Assembly: GCA_050012255.1 (NCBI GenBank)
Contig: JBEKHN010000002.1
Span: 96,001 to 160,000 of the forward strand
DNA: 64,000 bases
Direction: 5' to 3'
Source of the DNA: Candidatus Bathyarchaeia archaeon
GTDB taxonomy: Archaea; Thermoproteota; Bathyarchaeia; Bathyarchaeales; Bathycorpusculaceae
This document shows, piece by piece, positions 3,952-47,950 of the stretch; the stretch's first letter is position 1; each line of letters begins with the position of its first letter. The notes under the pieces were generated by a model. The model saw only the letters and a list, made by a program, of their open reading frames with translations, was not told the origin of the DNA and ran no database searches. The position numbers and the translations under genes are program-made.

Positions 3952-4950
3952 TTATCCAGTAGGCGCGGTTTTGAGTAGTCTGTATGCTTGTTCCTCAATC
4001 TCGGCTATTTCCACCAAGCTGTTCGATGCTTCCTGCCTGTTCTGCTTCAGAGCTGCCTCACAAAGTTTCTTAATCTTCTCTCCGGATCGTCTGAAAAGAG
4101 CCGATGCCTCAGTCCAAACGTCTACGCCGTACTTGGCTCCTAAAACGTTGAGCACATCTGCTTGCCAGAACCGCATTCCATGACTGTTTTCGAAAGTCTT
4201 AGGTAGCAGCGGAGGGGTTGTCGCATAAGTGACCATATGTTCAAAGCACTTCTTGTTATCCCATTCAAGAATCTCATCGGCAAGCCTGCGCATCGCAGGG
4301 ATGCCAAACAGCTTCACAGGCGGGTTCAAGAACCGTTCAGCCTTGTAGCAGAAACCCTTCTCGGCAACTTCGAACTCAGACGGCAATCTTTCAGGAAAGT
4401 TAAACTTCCTTATCGTGTTTCTCTTACTCATCCCTAGTACGTTGACGTCCAAAGATTTCTCAAACTCATCGTATGGTACCCGCTGGACACCTTCACGGCT
4501 ACAATCATGCACGAAGACAAAGCGTTCCTCATCATCGTATCCAATGACGAGAACATAATGAATGGGAACGTGGAGTTTCTTGTAGAGATCTGGGTAGTAT
4601 CGCAGATAGTACATGTCAAGAGCTCCGGCCACAACGGGATGTCCATCGTCAATGAACTCTTTCAGCTTCGGAAACGTGTTCTTGAACGTCTTCCCCTCGA
4701 TCACAGTCTCTTCGAAACCAATTATTCTGGCGAGATCCTTCATCAGGTACTTGGGATTGGCACCCCAAAACACCATGCAGGGCGGGTCTGCCCTCTTGAA
4801 GCGAAGATAAGTAAAACCCGCCATACCACCAACAACAGAAAGCAAGAAATCAGTATAGCGCGCTCCCCTCCACGAAACGAGATCTTCCAGTCCGTTGACA
4901 TAGCATGTGGATTCACACACTCTATGTGGTAATGTGTGCAGCTTTTTCAC
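3952..4950 (-). CDS. BtrH N-terminal domain / C39-like papain-fold protein
   Basis: Candidate catalytic Cys (STCY), His (IHYVLVIGYD) and Asp (VHDC); LDMYYLRYY. GTG start at 4950 follows a GGTGG RBS-like site. Confidence 0.7.
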   Translation of the reverse strand: MKKLHTLPHRVCESTCYVNGLEDLVSWRGARYTDFLLSVVGGMAGFTYLRFKRADPPCMVFWGANPKYLMKDLARIIGFEETVIEGKTFKNTFPKLKEFIDDGHPVVAGALDMYYLRYYPDLYKKLHVPIHYVLVIGYDDEERFVFVHDCSREGVQRVPYDEFEKSLDVNVLGMSKRNTIRKFNFPERLPSEFEVAEKGFCYKAERFLNPPVKLFGIPAMRRLADEILEWDNKKCFEHMVTYATTPPLLPKTFENSHGMRFWQADVLNVLGAKYGVDVWTEASALFRRSGEKIKKLCEAALKQNRQEASNSLVEIAEIEEQAYRLLKTAPTG

Positions 4951-5263
4951 ACGACCCACCCAGTTCCATTGAGCAGAGGCTGAATAAGCCCAGGCCCAAA
5001 ATAAATAGCTACTGTGACAATCCTCAGCTACATAGTCATCCAAAAACACCAGCCTGTTCCATTTCGTACGTCAGGTCAGAGTGCTGCTCGCCCAACCTTG
5101 TGTTGAAACAGGAAAATAGGGGAATTGCGGGAGCAAACGGTCATTAAACGACTGATATCTGAATTGAAGTTTCTTCCACAAGCCACAAAAAAGCCGCAAA
5201 GCAAAACTATGAAGTATGTGAGGTATTTGTCTGGGTAAGGAAGCGGGTCGTATAAAGATCACG

Positions 5264-5542
5264 GTGCTCAAACGGTTTGACACTAAAGAGGTATTCAAAG
5301 ATCCTCCAGTCAAGGCAAAGTATAGTGGTCCATGCTCCATCTTCAAGGAAGGACAGGTGTTCTATGTTGATGACAGCATGCCAAGCGGGTTTTGCCCTTA
5401 TGCTTGGGGCGCAATCTTCTTGGCAGTTATAACGCTCAAGTCAAATGGCAACTTCAGCGAGTGGTATGATGAACGTGGAGTTGCAGTAGGGTGCTGCACA
5501 GACGGATTAAGACCAGTGGTCTTCAAGCTAGAGCGAAAATAG
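5264..5542 (+). CDS. TIGR04076-family small Cys-rich protein
   Basis: PCSIFKEGQVF...PSGFCPYAW...CCTDGLRPVVFKLER. Confidence 0.8.
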   Translation: MLKRFDTKEVFKDPPVKAKYSGPCSIFKEGQVFYVDDSMPSGFCPYAWGAIFLAVITLKSNGNFSEWYDERGVAVGCCTDGLRPVVFKLERK

Positions 5543-5733
5543 CGCGCGCTTTCCAACTCCTCTCACTCATAGTCTCTCTTACAGACGCACAGATACACGC
5601 ATAGCGCGCGATTTCTGAAATAATGCAGAATTGGATGCAAGTTGAATTGATATGCACGATCAAATGCCAAAGAAGACTTGTCAACAAACTATATATGCCG
5701 ATTTCACCATCACAGGTCAGGGGAAAAGGAGAT

Positions 5734-5820
5734 TGTTAAGGAAAGCATTTTTCTGCAGTCATGTTCATCATGCTTCTGATGAGTGTGTTGACTGTGGCAT
5801 TCGACATCCAACCGTGCGCG
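5734..5820 (+). pseudogene. Frameshifted relic of a signal-peptide-coding 5' end paralogous to the downstream gene
   Basis: GGAGA RBS plus TTG. Removing one T from a T5 run gives LLRKAFSAVMFIMLLMSVLTVAFDIQP, resembling MKRKMVSTIALTLLLTSLLTLAFNIQP of the next gene. Confidence 0.5.
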
Positions 5821-5843
5821 TTAGTTGAATTGGAGAAGGGAGA

Positions 5844-8312
5844 ATGCTGTTTATGAAGAGAAAGATGGTTTCAACAATAGCGCTCACACTGCTGTTAACC
5901 AGCCTGTTGACATTGGCATTTAACATTCAACCGACTAAAGCAGAACCGCGAACATGGACTGTGGATGATGATGGACCAGCAGATTTTCACACAATACAAG
6001 AGGCCATGGACGCGTCAAGCGACGGAGACACGGTATTCGTGTACAACGGGACTTACTATGAAAATGTCGTTGTCAGGAGTAATGTTTCGCTTGTCGGAGA
6101 AAACCGTATCGGTACGATCATTGACGGAAATGCAAGCGCACACGATCTGTGGGCTCAGTCTGCGGTACGACTATGGACCAGTTCTAATGTGACTGGATTC
6201 ACAATACGAAATGGAGGCTTTGGTGTTGAAGATCAACGGGTTGTGGGTTTCTTTCCTGTATTTACTGGCAATAGAATAGAAGACAATCTGATCGTAAACA
6301 ATGTTGTCGGAGCTATTTTTCTGAGGGGCTGTGCAAACGATACCGTATCCAACAATGTCATAGCAAACAATGCGCTGTTCGGCATTCATCTGTGGAACGC
6401 CGGCAACAACACAATAACGAACAATACCGTGGTAGAAAATGGGTATGGCATTGACCTCTATGGCAACTGTTACGACAACACCCTAAGAAACAACAACATG
6501 ACCGATAACGATTACAATTTTGGGCTGATCCTGCTCGAACAGACATGGAACTGGATTTTTGGTTTGGGAGAGAAGCCTGGGCTCTACAACGACGTGGATG
6601 CCTCGAACACCGTCAACGGAAAGCCCATATACTACTGGGTAAACCGGAGAAATGAGCAGGTTCCATCAGACGCCGGATACGTTTGGTTGAACAATTGTAC
6701 AGGCATCACAATCGACGGGGTCAATCTGTCAGGCAATCTCCAAGGCATACTACTTCATTCTACAAACAACACATCAGTCAGAAATTGTACTATTGACAAT
6801 AATGTATGCGGCATATATCTATTGATAGGCAACAACAACACACTTGTTGGAAACACACTCAACGACAATTTGGAAGGCATTTACCCTGGTGATTTTTCAA
6901 TGTTCACAACCATGAGAAACAACAGTATTAGCGGTGGCCAAATGAACTTTGGCCTACCCCCGAAAACAATAAGTCGCTCGCCCAACATGGATCCGCTAGC
7001 TGAATTCCTGAATGACATCGACATGTCTAACACTGTTGATGGCAAGCCAATAATCTATTGGATAAATCAGCACGACCAAAAGGTTCCAACGGACGCTGGA
7101 TGCGTGATACTGATAAACTGCACAAACATATCGGTTGAGGATTTGAACCTGACGAAAAACGTTCAAGGCGTTCTTGCGGTAGCTTCAAACAACACGATCA
7201 TAGCAAACAACTCGATAAGTGACACCGTTTATGCTATTGATGCCAAAGGCTATCGCTACTTGTCGCGCGCGGACGATGAGTGGCTGTTCGTCGATTATAC
7301 TTCTTTCAACACCACGGTCAAGAGAAACATGATAGTTGATAACGGAGTGGGAATGCGGATCTCGAGCAACAGTAGCATCATAACAAACAATACGGTTTTG
7401 AGAGATCCACTTGGAATCTACCTCCCCGATGCATTCGGTAGCATCATCTCAGGGAATTTGGTGAATGGGAGCGACATCTGGTCTCTCATAGAAATGCATC
7501 GCTTTCCTGAATTGGCCCCCTTTTTCCCCGAGGAGGCTTGGGTGGAACTTTCACCCGAACTGAGAATGTTGGAAGTTGGAGCGATGATTTTGGGGGGCAG
7601 CTATAATCTTGTTCAAGACAACACCTTTGCTGACAGCTTTATCGGCATATCAACAGGCGCGATCTATGAATACGGCAGCGGTAACCTCATTTTCCACAAC
7701 AACTTGATCAATGATACGTCTCCCGCCGCGCAAGCGCCAGGGATCAACTTCTGGAACACCGCTTATCCTTCTGGCGGCAACTACTGGAGTAAGTACAACG
7801 GCACTGACTTCTACAGCGGTCCTTATCAGAACGAAACTGGAAGCGACGGCGTAGGCGACACTTCCTTCAGCGTTTTTGTAGGTAATATAGATCTTTATCC
7901 GCTTATGGCTCCATGTGGCACGTTTGATGCTGGAAGTTGGAATGAAACGGCCTGCAACGTTTACGTGGTGAGCAACTCTTCTGTTTCAGGCTTTCAGGCT
8001 GACATCACCCAGAAAACGCTGAGTTTCAACGTTACCGGCTCCGAGTCTACAGCCGGCTTCTCCAGAGTAGCCATCCCCAACATTATCGTTCAAGACTTGT
8101 GGCAGGGCAACTACACCGTTCTTCTGAACGGAGAGCCATGCCCATTCAGAAACTGGACAGACACCACGAACACATACATATACGTAAACTACACCCACTC
8201 ACAACACCAAATAACAATAGTACCAGAGTTTCCATCATTACTCATTCTACCACTATTTATGATAGTAACACTGCTTGCAGTCATAGCCTACAAAAGGAAA
8301 AAAAGCAAATAG
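5844..8312 (+). CDS. Secreted right-handed beta-helix (NosD/CASH) surface protein with PEF-CTERM-like sorting signal
   Basis: Signal peptide; DFHTIQEA; Asn-rich beta-helix repeats; two internal copies of D.D.SNTV.GKPI.YW.N; GGNYWS; C-terminal VPEF + TM helix + KRKKSK. Confidence 0.85.
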   Translation: MLFMKRKMVSTIALTLLLTSLLTLAFNIQPTKAEPRTWTVDDDGPADFHTIQEAMDASSDGDTVFVYNGTYYENVVVRSNVSLVGENRIGTIIDGNASAHDLWAQSAVRLWTSSNVTGFTIRNGGFGVEDQRVVGFFPVFTGNRIEDNLIVNNVVGAIFLRGCANDTVSNNVIANNALFGIHLWNAGNNTITNNTVVENGYGIDLYGNCYDNTLRNNNMTDNDYNFGLILLEQTWNWIFGLGEKPGLYNDVDASNTVNGKPIYYWVNRRNEQVPSDAGYVWLNNCTGITIDGVNLSGNLQGILLHSTNNTSVRNCTIDNNVCGIYLLIGNNNTLVGNTLNDNLEGIYPGDFSMFTTMRNNSISGGQMNFGLPPKTISRSPNMDPLAEFLNDIDMSNTVDGKPIIYWINQHDQKVPTDAGCVILINCTNISVEDLNLTKNVQGVLAVASNNTIIANNSISDTVYAIDAKGYRYLSRADDEWLFVDYTSFNTTVKRNMIVDNGVGMRISSNSSIITNNTVLRDPLGIYLPDAFGSIISGNLVNGSDIWSLIEMHRFPELAPFFPEEAWVELSPELRMLEVGAMILGGSYNLVQDNTFADSFIGISTGAIYEYGSGNLIFHNNLINDTSPAAQAPGINFWNTAYPSGGNYWSKYNGTDFYSGPYQNETGSDGVGDTSFSVFVGNIDLYPLMAPCGTFDAGSWNETACNVYVVSNSSVSGFQADITQKTLSFNVTGSESTAGFSRVAIPNIIVQDLWQGNYTVLLNGEPCPFRNWTDTTNTYIYVNYTHSQHQITIVPEFPSLLILPLFMIVTLLAVIAYKRKKSK

Positions 8313-33889: not shown

Positions 33890-34708
33890 TCAACTTTTTC
33901 TTTCCAAATGGCTTATGAGGCTTTCAAACACCAGTTTTCCGTCTCCGTACTCGGACATCCGTTTCTGTCTCGTCCAGTCTGGCTGCTGCCACCAGTAGAA
34001 GGCTCTTTCCGGATGCGGCATCAAGCCGAACACGGTTCCCTCAGGGTTGCACACACCCACTATGTCATGAAACGAGCCGTTCGGGTTTGTCGGATAAGCG
34101 CCCTCTGCGTACTCGCCGCCGCTGTTGCAGTAGCGGAAGACAAGCTGATCATTCTCGTAAAGCCTCTCCAAGCACTGCCTCTCTTTTTCTTTTGCAAACA
34201 TGAACCTGCCCTCACTGTGCGCGACTGGCACACGAAGTACCTTTCCCCCAGGAATCTTCGACGTGAATACGCACTTTCCCCTGTTTTCATGCTTAACGCT
34301 AACCCATCTGCAATTGTACCCTGGCGGAAAATTAGTGGCCAAGGCTGCCTCAGGATAAAGACTAATTCCTTCAAAAGCCGGAAGCAACCCTGCCTCAACG
34401 AGCACCTGAAACCCATTGCAGATGCCGAGGATCGGACGGTTTTCGTCCACAAAAACTCTCAACTCTCTGCCCAACTTGGACATTAACCATTTCGCCCATA
34501 TGGCTCCAGCTCTAACGTAATCTCCGTAAGCGAAACCGCCTGGAAAGACCAACGCGTCATAGTCTAACATGCTTCGCCGCTTCACCATCTCGTTCGCATG
34601 CACAACTTCGGCTTGAACGCCCAGCGCTTCGAACGCCCGTCTCGTCTCAGCATCACAGTTCGTTCCGCCTACCCGCGAAACACAAACCCTGATCTCTTCC
34701 CGCTTCAC
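33890..34708 (-). CDS. purQ: FGAM synthase glutaminase subunit
   Basis: GTNCD, PGGFAYGDY, GICNGFQVL, AHSEG, NPNGS, GLMPHPER. Confidence 0.96.
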   Translation of the reverse strand: MKREEIRVCVSRVGGTNCDAETRRAFEALGVQAEVVHANEMVKRRSMLDYDALVFPGGFAYGDYVRAGAIWAKWLMSKLGRELRVFVDENRPILGICNGFQVLVEAGLLPAFEGISLYPEAALATNFPPGYNCRWVSVKHENRGKCVFTSKIPGGKVLRVPVAHSEGRFMFAKEKERQCLERLYENDQLVFRYCNSGGEYAEGAYPTNPNGSFHDIVGVCNPEGTVFGLMPHPERAFYWWQQPDWTRQKRMSEYGDGKLVFESLISHLERKS

Positions 34709-34711
34709 AGC

Positions 34712-37093
34712 CTAAGCCCTCCTGCTAAACGTTCGCTTCCAACTCGCCACCAGATCATTAAGCGAAACGTCAACGACAACCTCGCCCGCCAACCCTGTGA
34801 CACACAGTCTAGGAGACTTTGTAACCCTGCCAATCTCTGCAAAAACCCTGCCTTCCATTACCTCCTCAAAACGTTCCTTCGCCTCTCCAGAAACTTCTAC
34901 GAGGAAACGACTGTTCGACTCCGAGAACAGCAGAAAATCGTCACGGTTCAACTTCTGCGAAGAAACCTTCCTCAGATCCAGCGCGATCCCGTACCCACCT
35001 GCAAAAGCCATCTCCGCTGCGCTGACGGCCAAACCTCCTTCAGAAAGGTCGTGACATGCTCTGACCAGTCCAGAATCAATCGCCCTGGTCACTGCGCCAA
35101 AGGTCTTCTCAGCCTGGTTCCTCCGCACTTTAGGCACGGTTCTTCCGAGAACTCCATTCATTCTATAGTATTCCGAACCGCCGAGCTCTTTGAAAGTTCC
35201 TCCAACGAGATAGATCAAATCATTCGCGGCCTTGACATCCACAGACACTGCGGAGCGCACATCAGGAACTATGCCTAGAGCTGTTATCAACAGCGTCGGA
35301 GTCACCGGGCCCAGAGGTGACTCGTTGTAGAGGCTGTCCTTCCCCGAGATGAACGGTGTGCCGTATCCAATCGCGAAGTCATAACATGCCTCGCACGCCC
35401 TAACCAAGCTCCCAAGCCTCTCTGGCCGTTCAGGATTGCCCCACGTAAAGTTGTCAAGAAGAGCTATTCGTCTTCCGCCCACAGCCACGTTGTTTCGCAC
35501 CGCTTCATCTATGACAGAAGCAGCCATCCAGTAAGTGTCTATTTTTCCGTAGTTCGGGTTCATGCCGCACGAGATTGCCACACCCTTCCAACTATCATCC
35601 AAAGGTTTCAACACGGCAGCGTCGTTGGGACCGCCGTTCTTGCCCTGCAATGGCTTCAGCACCGTGTTCCCTTTCACTTCATGATCGTACGTTCGCACGA
35701 CGCTCTCTTTGCTCGCAATGTTAGGCGAAGAAAGAAGCCGCAAGACCGTTTCTGCGAGGTCTTCCTGTGTGGGAACTTCAGGCTCCTCCAAGTTTGCTAC
35801 TTTGTATTTCGCCATTTTCGTCATTCTAGGCGGCTCAAACAAGAATGAGATGTCCATTTCTGCAACTGTTAGGCCGTGAAAGCTCAGTCTTAGTGTTCTG
35901 TTTGAGGTCAGCTTTCCGATGGCCGCGGCTTCAACGTCTTCATCTTCAAAAACAGCTAACAAATGTTCGAGGTTTTCAGGCGGCGCTGTTAGGAGCATTC
36001 TCTCTTGAGATTCTGAAACGTAGATTTCCCATGGGGCTAGGTCCGCATGTTTCAAGGGAACTCTTTCAAGCTCCACCGTAGCGCCGCAGTCAAACTTTTT
36101 CGCGGTTTCGCCCACGGCAGAGGACAGACCACCACCGCCTAAGTCTGTGATTGCAGATGCCAGCCCGAGGTCTCGGATTTTGATTATTGCCCTCTTGAGC
36201 TTTTCCTCCTCGATCGGGTTGGCTATCTGAACTGCGGGGCGAGAAACCTCCTCTGATTTTTCCGTCAGTTCTGCAGAAGCGAAGGTCACGCCGTGTATGC
36301 CGTCCCGGCCAGTTTTCCCACCGGCCAAAACGATGACCTCATTCGATTTCGCGTCTTTCCTAAACTTCTTGAGTGGAAGAAGCCCAACACATCCGCAGTA
36401 GACCACGACATTCCCAACGTAGCTTTCATCGAAGTATATGGCACCGTTTACCGTTGGAATGCCCATGTTATTACCGTAGCTTCCTATGCCAGCAACGACG
36501 CCCATGTAAACGTATTTTGGATGCTTAACCCCAGCTGGAAGTTTCTCATAATCAAAATCCAGCGGTCCGAATCCCAAGACATCGGTGCACGCGATCGGGT
36601 CCGCCCAAACGCCTAAGATGTCCCGGATGACACCGCCTGTTCCAGTTGCCGCACCTCCGAAGGGCTCGACTGCAGATGGGTGATTGTGCGTTTCAACTTT
36701 GATTGCTACTCCGTAACCCTTGTCAAAATCGACTATACCAGCATTATCTTCAAAAACAGAGAAGCACCAGGACGGGTTGATTTCCTCCACAACTTTCCTG
36801 ATGTACTTTTTGAACAGGTTGTCGATTTCCTTCCCGCCGAATCTTATCTTGCCCTTGAAAGTTTTGTGGAAACAGTGCTCTGACCACGTCTGTCCTATCG
36901 TTTGAAGCTCCACATCAGTGGGATTCCGTCTTTTTTTTGCGAAATACTGTTTGGCCAGATTCATTTCTTCCAGGTTCAGGCCGATGCCGAGTTCACGGCT
37001 TATCTCAACAAGCTGCTCGTTTGTTGCATTGTTAACATTAACTTCAAAGACGGGAAAAGGGGTTTCTCTTCGGATGTAAAAGCTTGCAGTCAT
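34712..37093 (-). CDS. purL: FGAM synthase subunit
   Basis: WSEHCFHK, KVETHNHPS, GRDGIHG, SESQERM, HDLSEGG. Confidence 0.97.
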   Translation of the reverse strand: MTASFYIRRETPFPVFEVNVNNATNEQLVEISRELGIGLNLEEMNLAKQYFAKKRRNPTDVELQTIGQTWSEHCFHKTFKGKIRFGGKEIDNLFKKYIRKVVEEINPSWCFSVFEDNAGIVDFDKGYGVAIKVETHNHPSAVEPFGGAATGTGGVIRDILGVWADPIACTDVLGFGPLDFDYEKLPAGVKHPKYVYMGVVAGIGSYGNNMGIPTVNGAIYFDESYVGNVVVYCGCVGLLPLKKFRKDAKSNEVIVLAGGKTGRDGIHGVTFASAELTEKSEEVSRPAVQIANPIEEEKLKRAIIKIRDLGLASAITDLGGGGLSSAVGETAKKFDCGATVELERVPLKHADLAPWEIYVSESQERMLLTAPPENLEHLLAVFEDEDVEAAAIGKLTSNRTLRLSFHGLTVAEMDISFLFEPPRMTKMAKYKVANLEEPEVPTQEDLAETVLRLLSSPNIASKESVVRTYDHEVKGNTVLKPLQGKNGGPNDAAVLKPLDDSWKGVAISCGMNPNYGKIDTYWMAASVIDEAVRNNVAVGGRRIALLDNFTWGNPERPERLGSLVRACEACYDFAIGYGTPFISGKDSLYNESPLGPVTPTLLITALGIVPDVRSAVSVDVKAANDLIYLVGGTFKELGGSEYYRMNGVLGRTVPKVRRNQAEKTFGAVTRAIDSGLVRACHDLSEGGLAVSAAEMAFAGGYGIALDLRKVSSQKLNRDDFLLFSESNSRFLVEVSGEAKERFEEVMEGRVFAEIGRVTKSPRLCVTGLAGEVVVDVSLNDLVASWKRTFSRRA

Positions 37094-37341
37094 CGCTTTT
37101 CCTCAATGTTGACCGAGTAATTGTCCTTTGTTGGATTTGCCAGAAGCCTTTTGCACATCTCTTCAGCTTTCATCACAGCCTCCTTCTTTGACCGAGCTTC
37201 AAGAGTGACGGTGTAGACTTTGCTGACATTAGCAGTTTCAATTTCATAGCCAAGCTCTTTCAATAGCTGTGCGGTCGTCTCGCCTTCAGGGTCGCTGTGC
37301 CCGGGCTTCAGGCTTACCTCGATTCTCAGGCGGTATTTCAT
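37090..37341 (-). CDS. purS: FGAM synthase subunit PurS
   Basis: LKPG..DPEG, LLANP; overlaps the purL start. Confidence 0.95.
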   Translation of the reverse strand: MKYRLRIEVSLKPGHSDPEGETTAQLLKELGYEIETANVSKVYTVTLEARSKKEAVMKAEEMCKRLLANPTKDNYSVNIEEKR

Positions 37342-37398: not shown

Positions 37399-38475
37399 CT
37401 AATCCAAAATGATTTTCTTACCCTTGTGTAGGACCCTGATTCCCCCAAGGCCTGTTACGTGACCTATCTGTTCTGATTCTACTCCTGCTTTGTTCAAAAC
37501 GTCTAAGGCTTTGTCTGTGTCGGCTTTTTCCACTATGGCTGCGAATCCCCACCCCATGTTAAATGTTCTGAACATCTCCACGTCAGTTATTGGGGTGTTT
37601 AGCTCGCTTGCGGTTTTTTGGATTAAGTCGAAGATTGGCTGTGGTTTGAAGTTGTTGAATTCAAAACCTATGTCTTGTGAAAACGTGGCCAGACGGCCAA
37701 ACTTGAGGTATGCGTCGCCAGTGATGTGCACGGCGGCCTTCACCTCCAGCTTCTCTGTCAGTCTGAGAAAAGGCTTGACGTATATTCTGGTCGGTTCCAA
37801 GACTTCATGAACCAGTTCTCGTTCTAACCCGTCAGGAACAGCGTCAGCCTTATACTTCCCGCCCCATTGCTTGAAGAGAACTCTTCTGGCGAGAGATATG
37901 CCATTGCTGTGAAGCCCTGAACTCTTCAAGCCTATTATTGGGTCCCCTGGGCCCATGTTTCTTCCTGAAATCACATCTTCTTTAGCGACTTCACCTACTG
38001 CCGCGAAAATCATGTCGAACCCCTTGCCTGCACGCAGACCCTTTATCAGATCGGCTACATCGCCAATCTCGCCGCTGGGAACTATGCATTCTGACTCGGC
38101 TGCCCCTCTTGAAATGCCTCTCATCCATTCTCTGACAAGAGAGGGATCGGAAACCTGTGCGTGGATGTTATCCGCAATTGCGATTGGTCTCGCGCCGGAA
38201 CGTATGACATCATTGACTGCCATTGCCACGCCGTCAATACCAATAGTATCATATTCGCCTGCTAGCTGAGCAATGAGCACTTTTGTGCCAACTCCTTCAA
38301 TAGCTAGGTCCAGATAGCCGTCGTGAAATGGAAATATGTTCCCGTACGGAAGCTCGACAACTTTGCCGTATCGACTGTGTTTATAGGTCTGCTTCAATAC
38401 TTGCAACGCTTTTTTTGACTCAGCTCTTAGGTCTCTGTCAACTCCAGAGTCGGAGTAAGTGAGTTTTCGGGTCAC
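37399..38475 (-). CDS. purM: Phosphoribosylformylglycinamidine cyclo-ligase (AIR synthase)
   Basis: TYSDSGVD, EGVGTK, VAMAVND, SSGLHSNG, HITG, TFNMG. Confidence 0.95.
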   Translation of the reverse strand: MTRKLTYSDSGVDRDLRAESKKALQVLKQTYKHSRYGKVVELPYGNIFPFHDGYLDLAIEGVGTKVLIAQLAGEYDTIGIDGVAMAVNDVIRSGARPIAIADNIHAQVSDPSLVREWMRGISRGAAESECIVPSGEIGDVADLIKGLRAGKGFDMIFAAVGEVAKEDVISGRNMGPGDPIIGLKSSGLHSNGISLARRVLFKQWGGKYKADAVPDGLERELVHEVLEPTRIYVKPFLRLTEKLEVKAAVHITGDAYLKFGRLATFSQDIGFEFNNFKPQPIFDLIQKTASELNTPITDVEMFRTFNMGWGFAAIVEKADTDKALDVLNKAGVESEQIGHVTGLGGIRVLHKGKKIILD

Positions 38476-42071: not shown

Positions 42072-42995
42072 TCAACTCGTGCCAAGAAATTTTTTCAAGT
42101 CGTCAAGTGTTGGCAGGCCACTTCTCGCGCCCATAGTGGTGATAGACCTTGAGGCGACGAAATTGCCTATTTTTCCGGCTTCATTAATGTTCTTGCCGGA
42201 GAGTAGCCCGAATATGAAGCCAGCGTCGAAAGCGTCGCCAGCCCCGGTGGTGTCCACAACCTTAACTTTGAAAGGTTCCACCAGGTGGCTTTCACCTCTG
42301 TCTATAACGTAGCATCCTTTACTTCCCAGCTTTACAGCTAGGACTTCAACACCTTCATCAATTAGCAATCGTGCGCCGGCCTTATAGTCAGTCTTGCCTG
42401 TTAGCAATGCGATTTCACCTGCGTTTGGCATCATTACAGAGGTCTTGTCTATGATGGGCTTTAGTTTCGTCAATCCGATTCTCGCGTAAAGTGCTCCCGG
42501 GTCGAAACTCACCTTGACCTTTTCCGGCAGCCTGTCAACAAGTCTTTTCTGTGTTTCGAACGACTGTTTTCCAGCGAAGGATGATAAATGCAAGAATTTG
42601 GTGCTTGACGCATAGGCGCTATCTGTTTCGTCGATTTTTATCGTGTCGTTCACGCCAGGGTCGATGTACAATGCCCGTTCTCCCTCTTTGCCCACGAAAC
42701 CCATCACTTTGCCGCTTCTTCCTACCTTAGCAACCGTTACGCCTCTGGTGTCAACACCCTCTTTTCGAAGATCTTGAAGCAGCATTCTTCCTTCAGGGTC
42801 GCTGGCAACCTTGCCGATGAAGCCTACCTTGCAGCCAAGTCTTGCCATGGCCACCATGGTGTTTGCCGCTGAGCCGCCGCAAGCCTCTGAGTGATCGACG
42901 ACAAAACTTTCTTCCTCGGCAGCGGCTATTCTGTTCACTTTAAATAGCTTGTCAACGTTGAGGGCGCCGAACCCAATGGCATCGAGTTCGCTCAT
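42072..42995 (-). CDS. PfkB/ribokinase-family kinase (EhaT-like)
   Basis: [27 protein letters not shown]; ATGA overlap with the ftr-like gene. Confidence 0.92.
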
Positions 42996-43906
42996 CGAAA
43001 CAGCTCTTTCAAATTTATCTTGTAATCGCCTAGCTTTCCACCGTAGTTTCCTGCAGAAATCCTCACCACGCCATCAACGCTCAACGCCGCTTCTATGCCG
43101 GCCTTCATTGCTTTTCTAACAGCGTCCATTGAGATGCCGTTGATCACTATTTCTGGGATATAGTTGACGCCTTCTGGCACTTTGGACTCGTCTTTTAGCT
43201 TCCTTTTCAGGGAGGGGCAGTAGGGATGATTTGTGGTAGGTCCTATAAGGGGAAAGCGTGTTTCAGTCTTCGACCCGGCTGAGCAGACGTCGAATGGGGT
43301 TGTCACGCCCTCAACCTGATGTATGGCTTCCAGCGCTTTCTTTCCGGCATCGACTACTTGTTTTTTCGCTTTGCACATGTACCAGAAGTTGCCACCAGCG
43401 ATTCCTCTCGCATAGCCGATGAAACGCTCTATGAGAAAATCGGGCACCATGATTGGAACGACGAGCACTTTTTTTCCGTATAGTTGCTCTTCCCACTCAT
43501 GCCCGTCTCCGCAGTGTCCAACCCTTTCCATCATGTCTATTTTCCCCTCAGGCTTCACGGACAAAGCGTCGAACACCGCTGTGAAAGGCTTTACCAAGAT
43601 GTCTTGACGAATTCGGTAGGAAAGCTCCTTTTCAAAACGGCCAAGCATGTTTTCTAAAGGTTTCCCTCTATCTAGGCCCTTCCAGAACTGCAAGATTGCT
43701 CCTTTTCGGTCGTCGGGCGTTTCATTCTTCCCGAGCAGTCTTTCGACTCCGCTGTCAAGTCTGCCTATAACGCCCGACGGCGTTGCGGTCGCATCGTCAG
43801 CAGCCTTCTTAACTGTCTCTTCGTCGTCGGCGGTCACTATCACGCGACAGTATAATCCTGAAAAGGCTTCGGCATACGTGTCTTCAATCAAGTTTTTCTT
43901 AATCAA
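42992..43906 (-). CDS. Formylmethanofuran:H4MPT formyltransferase (Ftr)-like paralog (EhaS-like)
   Basis: [51 protein letters not shown]. Confidence 0.9.
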
Positions 43907-43908
43907 AC

Positions 43909-44991
43909 CTATCCTAACCTGCCGATAGCTTCTCCTCTGACCTTCTTTCTAAACTCGCTGCTCTCCTTCGCTAGGTCTTTCATGTTTTCTCTCGTTATTA
44001 TTTTGGCTTTGGGCAGTTCTCGAGGATGCAGTTTGAGAAAACGTTCTCGCAAGTCCACGTTCACTAAACTATTCTCTAGTGTTCTGCGATTCCATTTCGC
44101 CACTAGTTTTAGCGTTTCCGTTTTTCCGAACCTGACGAAAACGTCGGCGATCAGCGCTGTCGTCAAACTGTCCGCGGAAAGCAGTGCGATTTCAGCGTTT
44201 CTGACAGCGTATTGGTTCCCGTTGAACGAAACAGCCAGACCGCCGTTTTCCTTCACAAGCTTGAAGGCTTCCTCGTCAGTTATGCTGTCACCCACATACA
44301 TCGTGTCCGTTAAAGCCACGCCATCCTTGCCTGCGATGTCCTTTATTGCTTCAGCTTTTTCTCTGCCGCCAACAGGGTTGACTTCAGAATAGATTTTTCC
44401 GATTGGCATTTTGGCAATGGTTTTCCAGAAAATCTCGTCCAGCCTTCGAATTGTTGTCCGGGTCTCTTCTGGAAGGTCTTTTAGGCTCTTCGCTTCTGCT
44501 GGACTCTCGAACACGGGTAACTGCACGATTTCACGGCCGGCCTTTTTCAAGCAGTCTTTCTCCTCTGAGGTTATGGCGTATACATCCAAGCTGAGCTTAG
44601 TGCAGTAGGTTTTCTCAAACGGAAACTCAAGAGCCTTGCACAAGGCCCTGATGTAGTGTTCGTAGCTTGTGCTGACGATGTATGCCGGCGCAATGCTTCT
44701 CACGTGTCGAAGCGAGTCCCCTGCGTGTGCGATCAGGACGAGGTTTCTGGCAGAAAACTGTCTGATCTCCTCGTCTGTGACGTCGTAAGCCTTGAGGAAG
44801 GGTAGCACAAGCTTCAACGTGTCGCCTGCCTCGTAACCAGGTCTTCTCAACACGTCTGAAAGGACATCATCATACCTGCTTACGACGGTGAAGAGTCTGT
44901 CGCCCTGTGGGACAAAATGTGACAGCGTTTCGAGAGCGTTGTCGTTCTTCGAAATGGGTCCTTCACAGTCTGTGATGAAAAGCCTCTTCAC
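43909..44991 (-). CDS. HAD-superfamily hydrolase-like protein (EhaR-like)
   Basis: Motif I variant FITDCEGP, motif II IVSTS, motif III K (GGREKA), motif [10 protein letters not shown]; GTGA overlap with the purD stop. Confidence 0.8.
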
Positions 44992-46397
44992 GACTTGCGC
45001 CTCAACTTCTCCATGTGTCTTACGCTCTTCTCTATGTGGCTTTCTGAGGCTACGTCGGTTCGATTCCAGAGGGCTCCACCCCGTATTGCCTTCAAGCCTT
45101 CAAGGGAGATCTGCCGAGCTTTTTCTATGCTTTCGCTGATCCCCACGGCGCACACAGCTCTGGATTTGAGGGCGAAGGTCCTGCCGTCGCGTTTTTCCAT
45201 TGATGCCGGGTAGATTCGAATGTCGTCACCGTATTTCATGCTCAGTTCATAAGCTCTGGTCAAATCGACTGGTCTGTCAATGCTGTCTGCTTTGACAAGG
45301 CTTGGGAAGGTTTCTGCGTATCCACCGTAGGAAGGTGGAGCCTTGTAGGTTACTACCGTCGCGGCTTTTTCTAATTGGAGCCTTGTCAAGTTACCTTCCA
45401 ACATTTTGAAGCAGACATCAAGGAAATCATCCTTCAAAACGGGCATTATGTTGATTATCTCGGGGTCTCCTGGTCGACTGTTGTTCTCAAGAATCTTCAG
45501 TTTTCTGCGTGTGTGCATGAAAGCAACGTAGAAAGGAACGCCTCGAAGGGCTGAGCTGTCTTCTCCTTTCCATTCTTGAAAGATCGTGTTGACAACGTTC
45601 AGCTCCTTGGCGCGATCAGCATCGGTCAGAAAAGGCAACACGTCTCCGACGCCCTTGTAAGACCCCATTCCTCCAGTGTTCGCTCCCTTATCGTCGTCGA
45701 ACGCCCGTTTGTAGTCTCTTGTATCCGGCAGGGGTACGAGGTGTTTTCCGTCGCAGAACGCCTGAAAGCTTGATTCCTCTCCTTCGATTTTTTCTTCTAT
45801 TATCACTGAACCGTGCTGGTAGTTTGAGAGGAAGTGATCGAACAGTTGTTCTCGGTTCGTAAAGTCGTCACCCCAGACACCGACCCCCTTTCCAGCCGCT
45901 GGCTTGTCGGGTTTAACTACAGCTTGGTCAGCCAGTTTGTCGAGCCAATCGTAAACATCCTTCTTGACTTCTGCAAGGGTTTTGTACTCTTTTGGGTTGA
46001 ATATCTTAAAGCGCGGGTTTACTTCGGGGGTGACTCTTTTGAAAAGGAGTCGTTGTTGAACTTTGCTTCCTTCCAGGGCACATCGCTTTGTTGGACAGAT
46101 CAGGGGTATTCCTGTTCGTTTCTCTAAGAGATCTCGTATTCCCTCGATTATCGGTTTTTCAGGGCCGACAATGCCGAAGTCAATTCTATGTTTGTTCATG
46201 TCTGCGAATTTGCAGATTTCTTCAACATTCAGATCAGGTATTACAACGTGTTTTGCTGCCCTTTTCGCGTTGAAGGGGTTGCGTTGCTTATCGGCAACGT
46301 AGATCTCCACTTTGTATCTTTGGCTGCGGGCGAAAGCGTCAATCATGGCTGCTTCTCTTGACCCATAAGAAACAACGAGTACGCCTACTTTTTCCAT
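44988..46397 (-). CDS. purD: Phosphoribosylamine--glycine ligase
   Basis: GSREAA, VGPE.P, LEGSK, AGKGV, DYKRAFDDDKGANTGGMGS, N.RPGDPE. Confidence 0.92.
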   Translation of the reverse strand: MEKVGVLVVSYGSREAAMIDAFARSQRYKVEIYVADKQRNPFNAKRAAKHVVIPDLNVEEICKFADMNKHRIDFGIVGPEKPIIEGIRDLLEKRTGIPLICPTKRCALEGSKVQQRLLFKRVTPEVNPRFKIFNPKEYKTLAEVKKDVYDWLDKLADQAVVKPDKPAAGKGVGVWGDDFTNREQLFDHFLSNYQHGSVIIEEKIEGEESSFQAFCDGKHLVPLPDTRDYKRAFDDDKGANTGGMGSYKGVGDVLPFLTDADRAKELNVVNTIFQEWKGEDSSALRGVPFYVAFMHTRRKLKILENNSRPGDPEIINIMPVLKDDFLDVCFKMLEGNLTRLQLEKAATVVTYKAPPSYGGYAETFPSLVKADSIDRPVDLTRAYELSMKYGDDIRIYPASMEKRDGRTFALKSRAVCAVGISESIEKARQISLEGLKAIRGGALWNRTDVASESHIEKSVRHMEKLRRKS

Positions 46398-46444
46398 GAG
46401 TAACCCGCCTGCCATCGGATTGACCGTGAAGACCAGTTCTTGTG

Positions 46445-47950
46445 CTAGGCTCTAGGAACAGCTTCTTCCATTTCGTACAGTCTTTCTGTCTCTTCAAAAC
46501 CCTGCGAGAACCGTTTCTTCATCTCATCGGCTATTGCTTGAGCTAGCGGTGTTGGATATTTGCCTGTTATGCATCCCGTGCACAACTCGTCCTGCTTAAA
46601 CCCCGTTGCTTGTACCAAGCCTTCGAGTGACTGGTAGCACACGGCGTCTGCTCCTATGATCTTTGAGATTTCTTCCGTGCTGTGTTTTGAGCCTATGAGT
46701 TGGCCATATGTTGCCATGTCTATTCCGTACAGACATGGTCCGATTATCCGTGGAAAAGTAACGAAAACATACACTTTCTCGGCGCCCATCCTGCGCAATT
46801 TGTCAACTATGACCTTTGTCGTGTCCCCTCTGACGATGCTGTCTTCGGTTACTATGATGCGTTTTCCATCGATTTTGGGCCCAAGGATGTTGATTTTCCT
46901 CTCTATCGTTGGGCTTCGGTCCTTGCTAAGCAGGATGAAGGCTCTCTCGGTTACGTAGCGGTGTCTTCGTGAAGCCCTTTCCCACCTCAACCCAGAAGCT
47001 TCGTGAACGCCGAGGGCCGAGTCGTCGCCTGTTTCAGGCACGGAAAGAATTATATCCGCGTCCTTGACCACCGTCGGATTCTCTCTCACCAGGTTTCTTC
47101 CAAATTCTTCACGAATTTCATAGACGTACTTGCTGTCAAACCGTGAGTCTGGCCTTGCAAAGTATGCGAATTCAAAGGCGCAGAAAGCCTTTCCTTTCCC
47201 GTTTACGAGCTTCTGTCTTTCAAACCCTTTGTTTGAAACCGTGACGAGCTCTCCTGGCTGGAGCTCGAAATCTCTTACGAAACCGTTTATGTCTAAACTG
47301 GCGGTTTCAGACGAGAATGCATACGTTGAGTGGTCTTCGCTGTGGCCTGCGCACAACGGCCTTATTCCATGCGGGTCCTTGAAGGCGACGAGATTGCCGT
47401 TTTGGTCCATGCACGCCACAGAAAAGGCTCCGTCGATTTCTTCCATACATGTCCCAACGGCGGACGTTAGATCCTTTCCTTTCAAGAGTTCGATTAGCAG
47501 TTTGTAACAGATCAAATCTGCGTCACATTCATAGGCAAACTGTGGAAACTCCTTGCGTATCTCTTTCCGAAGCTCGAACGTGTTGACCACGTTGCCGTTG
47601 TATGAAACGGCGAGCCCATGACCTTGTCTTGAAGCCGTCACTGGTTGCGTTCCTTCCACGAGCGATTTCTCGTCGCATTTTCCAGACGTTGTGTACCTTA
47701 CGTTTCCAATGCCGACATTTCCAGGCAACCGGCCAAACCATTCTTGAATTGCGCTCGTTCTAATCTTCGGCACGAGGTCGAGGCTTCTGTGAACGTGGAA
47801 CTTCCCATCAAGATACGTGAGGAAACCGTGAGACTGATGTCCCCTGTGGTTTTCAGCCCGCAAACCCCAATAAATGTATTGAAACACTGGCCGCTTATCG
47901 TAGTTTACTGCTGCAAACACTCCACATGCGATCTTCGGCTGGTCTCCCAT
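46445..47950 (-). CDS. purF: Amidophosphoribosyltransferase
   Basis: Propeptide + CGVF, HRG, RYTTSG, DPHGIRPLC, EDSIVRGDT, YGIDM, CTGCITGKYP. Confidence 0.96.
   Translation of the reverse strand: MGDQPKIACGVFAAVNYDKRPVFQYIYWGLRAENHRGHQSHGFLTYLDGKFHVHRSLDLVPKIRTSAIQEWFGRLPGNVGIGNVRYTTSGKCDEKSLVEGTQPVTASRQGHGLAVSYNGNVVNTFELRKEIRKEFPQFAYECDADLICYKLLIELLKGKDLTSAVGTCMEEIDGAFSVACMDQNGNLVAFKDPHGIRPLCAGHSEDHSTYAFSSETASLDINGFVRDFELQPGELVTVSNKGFERQKLVNGKGKAFCAFEFAYFARPDSRFDSKYVYEIREEFGRNLVRENPTVVKDADIILSVPETGDDSALGVHEASGLRWERASRRHRYVTERAFILLSKDRSPTIERKINILGPKIDGKRIIVTEDSIVRGDTTKVIVDKLRRMGAEKVYVFVTFPRIIGPCLYGIDMATYGQLIGSKHSTEEISKIIGADAVCYQSLEGLVQATGFKQDELCTGCITGKYPTPLAQAIADEMKKRFSQGFEETERLYEMEEAVPRA

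What the first reader, a model, noticed from the sequence alone, without database searches (positions are those of the whole stretch)
42072..47950. purF-purD operon continues into HAD-like + Ftr-like + PfkB kinase genes: candidate undescribed GAR formylation route
Seen: five co-oriented genes, purF > purD > HAD-like > Ftr-like > PfkB, with a 4-nt overlap, a 2-nt gap and a 4-nt overlap among the last four. purM-S-L-Q lies 3.6 kb downstream on the same strand. Steps 1, 2, 4 and 5 of de novo purine synthesis are in the window, but no PurN or PurT (step 3, GAR to FGAR). Known: Ftr moves a formyl group between formylmethanofuran and H4MPT, and both methanofuran and GAR present a primary aminomethyl group. 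From memory, unverified: a similar trio (EhaR, Ftr-like EhaS, ribokinase-like EhaT) of unknown function ends the Methanothermobacter eha operon, and some H4MPT-using archaea lack a recognisable PurN/PurT. This copy departs from canonical Ftr as I recall it ([29 protein letters not shown]) but keeps GSK and EIVING, suggesting a new acceptor. Inference: the paralog formylates GAR, or its riboside, from formyl-H4MPT or formyl-methanofuran. The HAD and kinase might remove and restore the 5'-phosphate, or salvage side products.
Basis: partly seen in the sequence, partly recalled or inferred. Interest (0 to 1): 0.9.

Follow-up and report, generated by a model that had tools for sequence, protein, structure and literature searches.

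The report
Candidate missing archaeal purine formylation module
Three tightly packed genes behind purF-purD in this Bathyarchaeia genome (a phosphatase-like protein, a second type of the methanogen formyltransferase Ftr, and a ribokinase-like kinase) are the best candidate for purine step 3, whose enzyme has been unassigned in several archaeal groups since 2011.

Summary
Five co-oriented minus-strand genes, purF, purD, an EhaR-type HAD protein, an Ftr paralog (Ftr2/EhaS type) and a PfkB kinase (EhaT type), lie at the stated coordinates with 4-nt, 2-nt and 4-nt junctions. The genome (98.5% complete) has genes for steps 1, 2 and 4 to 9 but no PurN or PurT.

Ftr2 is a separate clan from canonical Ftr and always sits beside an Ftr1 copy. 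In samples of three phyla, Ftr2 carriers almost never have PurN or PurT:
- Halobacteriota: 4 of 64 carriers have one, against 83 of 87 non-carriers.
- Methanobacteriota: 0 of 121.
- Bathyarchaeia: 0 of 16.

Bathyarchaeia without Ftr2 carry a PurN-like gene directly after purD, or a PurT-like gene, or lack PurD. EhaR and EhaT sit between purD and purE in an Odinarchaeota pur operon. They also flank a PurN-like formyltransferase on many metagenome contigs, and EhaT occurs fused to PurD.

Best reading (about 0.55): the module supplies GAR formylation. No biochemistry exists, and donor, acceptor and the roles of EhaR and EhaT are inferred.

This scan had already found the same module on other genomes at least eight times. 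An earlier check priced the bold reading at 40/100.

The parts
46445..47950 (-). purF, amidophosphoribosyltransferase (step 1). It has a short propeptide before the Cys. It is the only full-length copy in the genome.
   Evidence: (TIGR01134, 315 bits, under the cut-off of 350)
44988..46415 (-). purD, GAR synthetase (step 2), of a divergent type. It is the only copy in the genome.
   Evidence: (TIGR00877, 248 bits, under the cut-off of 288)
43909..44991 (-). EhaR-type HAD-fold protein of the AF1437 family. Motif I reads D-x-E-G-P, and motifs II to IV are kept. The C-terminal tail is conserved. Its start overlaps the purD stop by 4 nt.
   Evidence: PDB 1Y8A, E 2.9e-30; JGI name EhaR
42992..43906 (-). 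Ftr2 (EhaS type), a paralog of formylmethanofuran:H4MPT formyltransferase and the candidate formyltransferase for step 3.
42072..42995 (-). EhaT-type PfkB kinase, ribokinase-like. Its start overlaps the Ftr2 stop by 4 nt.
   Evidence: (ribokinase model, 171 bits, under the cut-off of 299.65)
37399..38475 (-). purM (step 5). Context: this is the downstream pur block.
37090..37341 (-). purS (step 4, small subunit). I name this 83-aa ORF purS from its position between purM and purL and its size; no family search was run on it.
34712..37093 (-). purL (step 4).
33890..34708 (-). purQ (step 4, glutaminase subunit).

Best explanation
The three genes after purD form one module that supplies the GAR-to-FGAR step (step 3) of de novo purine synthesis in archaea that use H4MPT and methanofuran and have neither PurN nor PurT.

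Ftr2 is the formyl-transferring enzyme. It keeps the Ftr fold and the catalytic glutamate but carries a set of clan-specific residues. Most likely it passes the formyl group of N5-formyl-H4MPT (or formyl-methanofuran) to the primary aminomethyl group of GAR or a close derivative. EhaR (a HAD phosphoryl-transfer fold) and EhaT (a ribokinase-like kinase) work on the acceptor side.

Shown:
- the gene order and its conservation;
- the gap at step 3;
- the paralog status of Ftr2;
- the inverse distribution against PurN/PurT;
- displacement by a PurN-like gene in the same place;
- the EhaR/EhaT links to pur genes.

Inferred: the reaction itself, the donor, the acceptor, and what EhaR and EhaT do.
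For: (1) The gap. The own genome, 98.5% complete, has PurF, PurD, PurS/L/Q and PurM, PurE and PurC, PurB and PurP. It has no PurN, Formyl_trans_N or PurT and no PurH.

(2) Ftr2 is a paralog, not the working Ftr.
- The genome holds two copies.
- The Ftr1 clan of 40 rows is split off with 100% SH-aLRT support (99%).
- Profile A2 scores are bimodal: Ftr2 scores at least 334 bits and Ftr1 at most 276.
- All 5 tested Asgard, Hadarchaeota and Hydrothermarchaeota genomes have both types.

(3) Inverse distribution.
- Halobacteriota sample of 151 genomes: 4 of 64 Ftr2 carriers have PurN or PurT, against 83 of 87 non-carriers.
- Methanobacteriota: Ftr2 in 120 of 121, PurN in 0 of 121, PurT in 0 of 121.
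- Thermoproteota sample: 0 of 16 Ftr2 carriers have either.
- Of 21 Ftr1-only genomes in that sample, 9 have PurN, 8 a PurT-like gene and 2 a weak PurN-like gene. The 2 with none lack PurD.
- PurT-only genomes, which do not depend on folate, also lack Ftr2: 10 of 10 in Halobacteriota.
- PurD is present in 45 of 45 tested Halobacteriota carriers and in 28 of 29 named carriers.

(4) Displacement in the same place. Two Bathyarchaeia genomes without Ftr2 (G343, G311) read purF-purD-[Formyl_trans_N protein]. Metagenome contig L107 reads the same.

(5) Links between the module and pur genes.
- purD plus the trio in 42 of 46 Bathyarchaeia loci.
- An Odinarchaeota operon reads purC-S-Q-L-F-D-ehaR-ehaT-purE-B-M-P. 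It holds every step from 1 to 9 except step 3, and the genome has no PurN or PurT.
- A PurN-like formyltransferase, whose best NCBIfam match is PurN at 63-77 bits, has EhaR directly downstream in 33 of 61 contigs with enough flank.
- EhaT-PurD fusion proteins exist in 5 clusters.

(6) The catalytic Glu (E252) is kept in 46 of 46 Ftr2 rows.

(7) The gap is in print and unassigned. I read passages of PMC3261824 and PMC9012536.
Against: - No enzyme assay, mutant or labelling result exists for any member.
- Kin are not independent. The counts carry no phylogenetic correction, and the handles of two samples carry no taxonomy.
- Ftr2 itself is next to pur genes only in Bathyarchaeia. Among 18 loci with other labels and enough flank, 0 show purD plus the trio and 3 show the trio alone. 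Lone Ftr2 genes sit among unrelated housekeeping genes.
- Some genomes carry both Ftr2 and PurN: 4 of 64 in Halobacteriota and 3 of 29 named carriers, two of them Promethearchaeia.
- Four Halobacteriota genomes have PurD but none of Ftr2, PurN or PurT.
- In the Thermoproteota sample, 60 of 151 genomes lack PurN and PurT-like genes and only 16 of those carry Ftr2. Of the other 44, only 2 were tested for PurD.
- An earlier check of this scan (e1-2408049, seen) counted Ftr2 in only 602 of 2,411 archaea that lack both enzymes. In Bathyarchaeia it found PurN/PurT rare both with Ftr2 (0 of 267) and without it (18 of 209).
- EhaR and an EhaT-like gene persist in G343, which has no Ftr2. EhaR was not found in the Methanocellales carrier G001 with this query.
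- EhaR-like proteins occur in bacteria, whose PurN/PurT status I could not test.
- Brown et al. (PMC3261824, passage) held methanopterin-bound formyl to be an unlikely donor.
Confidence: 0.55

Rival explanations
1. The module belongs to purine or ribose-phosphate metabolism but does not carry out step 3. It might prepare, salvage or repair a phosphoribosyl intermediate around PurD, while an unidentified enzyme formylates GAR.
For: - EhaR and an EhaT-like gene persist without Ftr2 in G343.
- EhaT is fused to PurD rather than to a formyltransferase.
- In the Odinarchaeota genome, ehaR-ehaT lie in the pur operon while Ftr2 lies on another contig.
- Four PurD-positive Halobacteriota genomes have none of the three candidates, so further solutions for step 3 may exist.
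Against: - Two unrelated formyltransferase folds (Ftr2 and a PurN-like protein) alternate beside EhaR/EhaT. That points to a formyl transfer as the core of the module.
- The inverse distribution against PurN/PurT has no reason under this reading.
Confidence: 0.2
2. Ftr2 is an ordinary second isoenzyme of formylmethanofuran:H4MPT formyltransferase. It would serve anabolism, the reverse direction, or the release of formate for PurP. Its place beside pur genes in Bathyarchaeia would be incidental.
For: - It matches the Ftr subfamily model above its cut-off (NF002554, 348 bits against 297).
- The catalytic Glu and many core residues are shared.
- Outside Bathyarchaeia it is not next to pur genes.
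- The genome does use formate-dependent PurP.
Against: - It is a clan apart, with about 16 residues fixed in Ftr2 and different in Ftr1.
- It always occurs beside an Ftr1 copy.
- Genomes with PurT plus Ftr1, which also need formate, lack it.
- It is absent from Ftr1-only lineages that have PurN.
- It is swapped for a PurN-like protein in the same module.
Confidence: 0.1
3. The module formylates an amine that is not a purine intermediate, such as an amino sugar or a cofactor precursor. The kinase and the HAD protein would handle its phosphate.
For: - Bacterial contigs carry PurN-like-EhaR-EhaT among housekeeping genes with no pur gene nearby.
- In Methanobacteria the trio closes the eha hydrogenase operon.
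- From memory, not from any call: the Formyl_trans_N family also holds sugar N-formyltransferases.
Against: - A cofactor role does not fit the distribution. Ftr1-only lineages with PurN or PurT use the same C1 carriers and lack the module.
- There are direct pur links in Bathyarchaeia, in Odinarchaeota, on contigs L107 and L152, and in the EhaT-PurD fusions.
- The best family match of the PurN-like partner is PurN itself.
Confidence: 0.1

Closest known systems
Formylmethanofuran:tetrahydromethanopterin N-formyltransferase (Ftr1; PDB 1FTR/2FHJ/2FHK, 1M5H, 1M5S) and bacterial FhcD (6S6Y)
   Same: - Both Pfam lobes match (FTR and FTR_C).
- phmmer E-values of 1e-56 to 5e-27 to the solved chains over the full length.
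- The catalytic Glu is kept, together with the GSK, EIVING and [10 protein letters not shown] blocks. PMC6926001 names this residue Glu252 in FhcD (passage).
   Different: - It forms a separate clan.
- About 16 positions are fixed in Ftr2 and different in Ftr1: P43, V46, G48, W75, R100, G130, C132, W175, C178, C208, E215, P219, G222, P223, P251.
- It is always a second copy.
- It sits in a pur operon rather than being part of the C1 pathway.
EhaR, EhaS and EhaT, the last three genes of the ehaA-T operon of Methanothermobacter (PMC3087415)
   Same: - The same three families in the same order.
- The Bathyarchaeia Ftr2 groups with the Methanobacteria copies at 96% support.
- The function is unknown in print (passages).
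   Different: Here the trio follows purF-purD and no hydrogenase gene is near. In Methanobacteriaceae locus L060 it is flanked by polyferredoxin genes.
PurN (10-formyl-tetrahydrofolate GAR transformylase) and PurT (formate- and ATP-dependent GAR transformylase)
   Same: The proposed net reaction and the place in the pathway are the same. The distribution is close to mutually exclusive, and a PurN-like gene stands in the same operon slot in relatives.
   Different: There is no sequence or fold relation. The proposed donor is bound to H4MPT or methanofuran. There are two conserved partner enzymes (EhaR, EhaT), which PurN and PurT do not need.
AF1437 (PDB 1Y8A), a HAD-fold protein of unknown function, and phosphoserine phosphatase SerB
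   Same: EhaR matches 1Y8A by sequence (E 2.9e-30) and by fold (TM 0.78/0.90). The next folds are SerB-type HAD-IB phosphatases.
   Different: The match to SerB is weak (TM about 0.46). Motif I has Glu where HAD phosphatases have the second Asp. EhaR has an extra C-terminal domain and a conserved tail.

Membership tests
Ftr family (PF01913 + PF02741) | Both lobes of the Ftr fold are present over the full length. | tested here: met
   FTR 143 bits, FTR_C 197 bits; full-length match to 1M5S, 1M5H, 1FTR
Ftr family (PF01913 + PF02741) | The catalytic glutamate of the EIVING block is present. | tested here: met
   (E252, in 46 of 46 Ftr2 rows). The residue's role is taken from PMC6926001.
Canonical Ftr (EC 2.3.1.101, formyl-MFR:H4MPT) | The protein groups with the biochemically characterised Ftr/FhcD clan. 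| tested here: not met
   the Ftr1 clan of 40 rows, which holds this genome's own C13 copy, excludes the window protein (99-100% support). The characterised enzymes themselves were not in the tree. They score like Ftr1 against the window protein (172-196 bits).
Canonical Ftr (EC 2.3.1.101, formyl-MFR:H4MPT) | Activity with formyl-methanofuran and H4MPT. | not testable with these tools
   This needs an enzyme assay.
EhaR-EhaS-EhaT trio | HAD (EhaR), Ftr-like (EhaS) and PfkB (EhaT) genes are adjacent in this order. | tested here: met
   (the same order in L060, L064, L066, L068)
EhaR-EhaS-EhaT trio | The trio lies at the end of the eha energy-converting hydrogenase operon. | tested here: not met
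   the upstream genes are purF-purD and aspS, and no hydrogenase gene is present.
PurN / PurT (known GAR transformylases) | A Formyl_trans_N domain (PurN), or an ATP-grasp with the PurT C-terminal domain (PurT). | tested here: not met
   for the three module proteins; for the whole genome
GAR transformylase by function | The enzyme forms FGAR from GAR. | not testable with these tools
   Only indirect evidence exists: the gap, the distribution, the operon slot and the displacement.
HAD superfamily phosphatase (EhaR) | Motifs I to IV: DxDx(T/V), S/T, K, GDxxxD. | tested here: inconclusive
   the nucleophile Asp, motif II (STSY), the Lys (GGxxK) and GDSITD are kept, but the second acidic residue of motif I is Glu. 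The fold is confirmed.
Ribokinase (PfkB family, EhaT) | The PfkB fold with the GG and DTxGAGD motifs, and a score above the ribokinase equivalog cut-off. | tested here: inconclusive
   The fold and motifs are met. The ribokinase model scores 171.5 bits, under its cut-off of 299.65. It is a family member but not a ribokinase equivalog.

The most novel reading that the evidence does not exclude
Anaerobic archaea and some bacteria formylate GAR by a three-enzyme, ATP-coupled route.
1. EhaR removes the 5'-phosphate of GAR.
2. A formyltransferase formylates glycinamide riboside. This is Ftr2 with formyl-H4MPT or formyl-methanofuran as donor, or a PurN-like enzyme with a folate donor.
3. EhaT restores the phosphate, giving FGAR.

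In Methanobacteria the trio closes the eha operon. On this reading, each formyl group withdrawn for purines must be refilled by the ferredoxin that Eha supplies.
Probability: 0.2. Interest if true: 0.9.

Novelty: new variant of a known kind. Interest (0 to 1): 0.8.

Why it matters
GAR formylation is the one step of de novo purine synthesis with no assigned gene in Methanobacteriales, Methanopyrus, Archaeoglobi and ANME-1. Passages in PMC3261824 (2011) and PMC9012536 (2022) say so.

If the module fills the gap, four things would follow:
- It would be a third, unrelated solution for this step, and it would draw on the methanogenic C1 carriers.
- It would give a function to EhaR, EhaS and EhaT, which have had none since the eha operon was described.
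- It would correct the routine annotation of Ftr2 as a Wood-Ljungdahl or methanogenesis marker in Bathyarchaeia, Asgard and other metagenome-assembled genomes.
- It would give a target specific to rumen and gut methanogens.

The claim is directly testable with proteins and cofactors from Methanothermobacter.

Tried and rejected
- **Binding test.** Complex prediction with Ftr2, EhaT and EhaR as the partner gave no verdict (score 0.02 against a mark of 0.32). I do not count it either way.
- **Expression.** No RNA holder was listed by the look-up of sequencing runs.
- **Promoter and terminator scan**. The counts were no higher than in shuffles, and the patterns are bacterial, so this says nothing.
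I scanned ORFs of fetched loci with Pfam instead.
- **Ligand contacts of Ftr.** I looked for the residues that touch methanofuran and H4MPT, to place the Ftr2-specific residues. No open text gave them, and the tools return no coordinates. Which pocket is changed therefore stays open.
- **Fold search of EhaR** and the Atlas gave no characterised close relative.
- **Cofactor-biosynthesis reading, rejected.** Lineages that use the same cofactors but have PurN or PurT lack the module.
- **Step 9 (AICAR) reading, rejected.** PurP is present.
- **Formate supply for PurP, rejected as the main role.** Genomes with PurT, which also need formate, lack Ftr2.
- **Not in print, as far as searched.** Searches found no paper that joins Ftr2/EhaS to GAR formylation. 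Subscription journals and supplements were not visible. Additional File 1 of PMC3261824 and the S2 Data of PMC9012536 could bear on the per-genome counts.
- **Limits of my counts.**
  - PurD was tested in only 2 of the 44 Thermoproteota genomes that lack all three candidates.
  - The list held 80 of the 99 handles I wanted.
  - IMP cyclohydrolase (step 10) was not searched.
  - In one search, locus L055 (labelled Nitrososphaerota) was counted with the Bathyarchaeia loci and L030 (labelled Methanomicrobia) with the others.
  - Seven long-branch rows were dropped before the residue comparison (P0323, P0363, P0301, P0357, P0374, P0378, P0384).

Full report
**What is there.** The window lies in a Bathyarchaeia-type genome; one search shows the names that sources give to near-identical proteins. 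Five ORFs run head to tail on the minus strand. They are purF (46445-47950), purD (44988-46415), a 360-aa HAD-like gene (43909-44991), a 304-aa Ftr homolog (42992-43906) and a 307-aa PfkB kinase (42072-42995). The junctions are a 29-nt gap, a 4-nt overlap, a 2-nt gap and a 4-nt overlap.

Pfam and NCBIfam confirm the families. PurF and PurD score under their equivalog cut-offs but are the only copies in the genome. purM, purS, purL and purQ follow on the same strand 3.6 kb away.

**The gap is real.** The assembly is 98.5% complete. Searches of the whole assembly found:
- no PurN model hit and no Formyl_trans_N domain;
- only 14-bit noise for PurT;
- no PurH AICARFT domain.

PurP, PurC and PurE lie at the start of contig C1 and PurB on C3. 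tblastn with the PurN-like, PurT-like and FolD proteins of relatives found nothing. Steps 1, 2 and 4 to 9 are therefore encoded and step 3 is not. Step 10 was not searched.

**The three extra genes are the EhaR/EhaS/EhaT trio.**
- JGI names relatives of the HAD protein 'energy-converting hydrogenase A subunit R'.
- Its only solved relative is AF1437 of Archaeoglobus, of unknown function.
- Passages of PMC3087415 state that EhaS was annotated as an Ftr and EhaT as a ribokinase, that both are co-transcribed with ehaA-R, and that those annotated functions are unlikely.
- Methanobacteria loci fetched here show the same order, flanked by polyferredoxin genes.

**Ftr2 is a distinct clan.** I built trees of representatives at 50% identity together with named loci. 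In these trees the clan that holds this genome's other Ftr copy (40 rows) is separated with 99-100% SH-aLRT support.

A profile of Ftr2 sequences (A2) gives bimodal scores in every sample: at least 334 bits for Ftr2 and at most 276 for Ftr1. All five tested Asgard, Hadarchaeota and Hydrothermarchaeota genomes carry one of each type.

The catalytic Glu is kept in 46 of 46 Ftr2 rows. About 16 positions are fixed in Ftr2 and different in Ftr1, among them P43, G48, W75, R100, C132, C178, C208, G222 and P223. I could not map these onto the two cofactor pockets.

**Distribution against PurN and PurT.**

| Sample | Ftr2 carriers with PurN or PurT | Non-carriers with PurN or PurT |
|---|---|---|
| Halobacteriota, 151 genomes | 4 of 64 (all four PurN) | 83 of 87 |
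| Methanobacteriota, 121 genomes | 0 of 121 genomes (Ftr2 in 120 of the 121) | not applicable |
| Thermoproteota, 151 genomes | 0 of 16 (15 full, 1 partial; all in the window's class) | see below |
| Named carriers from other lineages, 29 genomes | 3 of 29 (PurN); PurT in 0 of 29 | not applicable |

The ten Halobacteriota genomes with PurT alone all lack Ftr2.

In the Thermoproteota sample, 21 genomes have only Ftr1. Of these, 9 have PurN, 8 have a PurT-like gene of 232-329 bits, and 2 have a weak PurN-like gene. The 2 with none lack PurD.

The 29 named carriers include Methanocellales, Alkanophaga, Methanophagales, Archaeoglobaceae, Hadarchaeota, Hydrothermarchaeota, Odinarchaeota and Promethearchaeota.

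PurD is present in 77 of the 80 genomes tested. That includes 45 of 45 Halobacteriota carriers.

**Counts against the reading.** None of these counts is corrected for kinship.
- In the Thermoproteota sample, 60 genomes lack PurN and PurT-like genes, and only 16 of them carry Ftr2. The other 44 were mostly not tested for PurD.
- Four Halobacteriota genomes have PurD and none of the three candidates.
- An earlier check in this scan (e1-2408049) reported Ftr2 in 602 of 2,411 archaea that lack both enzymes. It also reported that in Bathyarchaeia PurN/PurT are rare both with Ftr2 (0 of 267) and without it (18 of 209).

My small sample suggests why the last figure is low. The alternatives in Bathyarchaeia score under the curated cut-offs, and some genomes have no purine pathway at all. 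I could not repeat that count.

**Displacement in the same slot.** Two Bathyarchaeia genomes without Ftr2 (G343, G311) read purF-purD and then a 278-299-aa Formyl_trans_N protein on the same strand. This is exactly where the trio stands in the window. Two others (G277, G389) have an ATP-grasp protein with the PurT C-terminal domain.

**EhaR and EhaT are purine genes in their own right.** In an Odinarchaeota genome the operon reads purC-purS-purQ-purL-purF-purD-ehaR-ehaT-purE-purB-purM-purP. Every step from 1 to 9 except step 3 is there. PurN and PurT are absent, and Ftr2 lies on another contig. EhaR and EhaT are also adjacent in Archaeoglobaceae and Hadarchaeota.

A scan of metagenome contigs with the PurN-like protein of G343 gave 80 loci.
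- EhaR lies directly downstream in 33 of the 61 loci with at least 600 nt of flank.
- Of the 32 loci with long flanks on both sides, 15 have both EhaR and EhaT and 15 have neither.
- One such contig is plainly bacterial: it carries dprA, topA, efp, tig and clpP.

The best family match of these formyltransferases is PurN, at 63-77 bits and under the cut-off. PurU and Fmt score lower.

Among longer relatives of EhaT, five clusters are fusions of an N-terminal EhaT-like kinase to a complete PurD. One is a HAD-PfkB fusion.

**Reading.** Two unrelated formyltransferase folds alternate beside the same two partners. The partners are tied to PurD by operon and by fusion. The whole module is found where PurN and PurT are not. 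The simplest account is that the module carries out GAR formylation, with Ftr2 as the transferase that uses an H4MPT- or methanofuran-bound formyl group.

The chemistry is plausible. Methanofuran and GAR both offer a primary aminomethyl group. The Ftr reaction is close to equilibrium, at 4.4 kJ/mol (passage of PMC6926001). The next purine step uses ATP.

Because EhaR and EhaT stay when the donor type changes, they probably act on the acceptor. Removing the phosphate before the transfer and restoring it afterwards is the simplest scheme, and I rate it at about 0.2. From memory, not from any call, one PfkB enzyme of Salmonella phosphorylates aminoimidazole riboside, which would be a precedent. 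1TYY appears among the matches.

In Methanobacteria, placing the trio at the end of eha would couple the withdrawal of formyl groups to the hydrogenase. From recall, that hydrogenase refills the cycle.

**Limits.** There is no biochemistry. Ftr2 itself is linked to pur genes only in Bathyarchaeia (42 of 46 loci, against 0 of 18 elsewhere). The Bathyarchaeia Ftr2 groups with the Methanobacteria copies (96% support), so the trio may have moved as a unit and counts as few events. Some genomes carry both Ftr2 and PurN.

**Standing in the scan and in print.** The same module was reported by this scan on at least eight other genomes. In print I found the gap (PMC3261824) and, separately, the uncharacterised Ftr2 clade and the lack of PurN/PurT in ANME-1, Archaeoglobales and Methanobacteriales (PMC9012536). 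No paper among those searched joins the two (searches listed under Tried and rejected).

Noticed in passing
P0397-P0401: These are fusion proteins of 714-737 aa. An EhaT-like PfkB kinase at the N-terminus is joined to a complete PurD (GARS_N, GARS_A, GARS_C). P0403 joins a HAD domain to a PfkB domain.
   Followed up: partly
L108-L186 (metagenome contigs): A PurN-like formyltransferase of about 280 aa, under the PurN cut-off, stands beside EhaR and EhaT in the orders T-N-R or N-R-T. At least one such contig is bacterial (L112). Whether those organisms have PurN or PurT could not be tested.
   Followed up: partly
L104 (G343:C1:414000-430000), 4384-6292: In a Bathyarchaeia genome without Ftr2, an EhaT-like kinase gene overlaps a folD gene. 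EhaR lies 3 kb away. This hints at a folate-type C1 branch there.
   Followed up: partly
window 44988-47950: PurD comes in two score classes: about 225-267 bits and about 325-561 bits against TIGR00877. The low class, to which the window's PurD belongs, is seen in Bathyarchaeia, Alkanophaga, Methanophagales, Hydrothermarchaeota and others. PurF of the window is also under its cut-off.
   Followed up: no
alignment A3, window 43909-43960: EhaR proteins end in a conserved tail, F-R-x-x-V-R-G-x-x-x-G-x-L-G, with an invariant last Gly. The second acidic residue of HAD motif I is Glu in nearly all rows.
   Followed up: no
window 42992-43906: Three cysteines are fixed in the Ftr2 clan (C132, C178, C208) but not in Ftr1. 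Whether they form a metal site, a disulfide or neither is unknown.
   Followed up: no
tree: The Bathyarchaeia Ftr2 groups with the Methanobacteria EhaS copies (96% SH-aLRT). These are the two lineages that keep the three genes adjacent, so the trio may have been transferred as a unit.
   Followed up: no
G075, G083, G119, G142: Four Halobacteriota genomes have PurD but no Ftr2, PurN or PurT at my thresholds. Either the assemblies are incomplete or there is a further solution for step 3.
   Followed up: partly
(G277, G389, G347, G355, G371, G362, G392, G419, G425, G280 and others): A PurT-like family of about 460 aa scores only 206-329 bits against the PurT model (cut-off 502). The two members I scanned with Pfam, G277 and G389, carry the PurT C-terminal domain. 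Strict thresholds would count these genomes as lacking PurT.
   Followed up: partly
L068, L076, L055, L030: The record labels look wrong for the gene content. A 'Bacteroidaceae' record carries a Methanobrevibacter-like eha tail, a 'Nitrosotalea' record carries an Ftr2, and a 'Nitrososphaerota' and a 'Methanomicrobia' record carry Bathyarchaeia-like Ftr2. The bins are probably mislabelled or mixed.
   Followed up: no
L073 9250-9981 and L088 8971-9894: In a Promethearchaeota locus, a different 243-aa HAD hydrolase lies 20 nt upstream of Ftr2. In a Hydrothermarchaeota locus, a distant PfkB gene lies divergently upstream.
   Followed up: no
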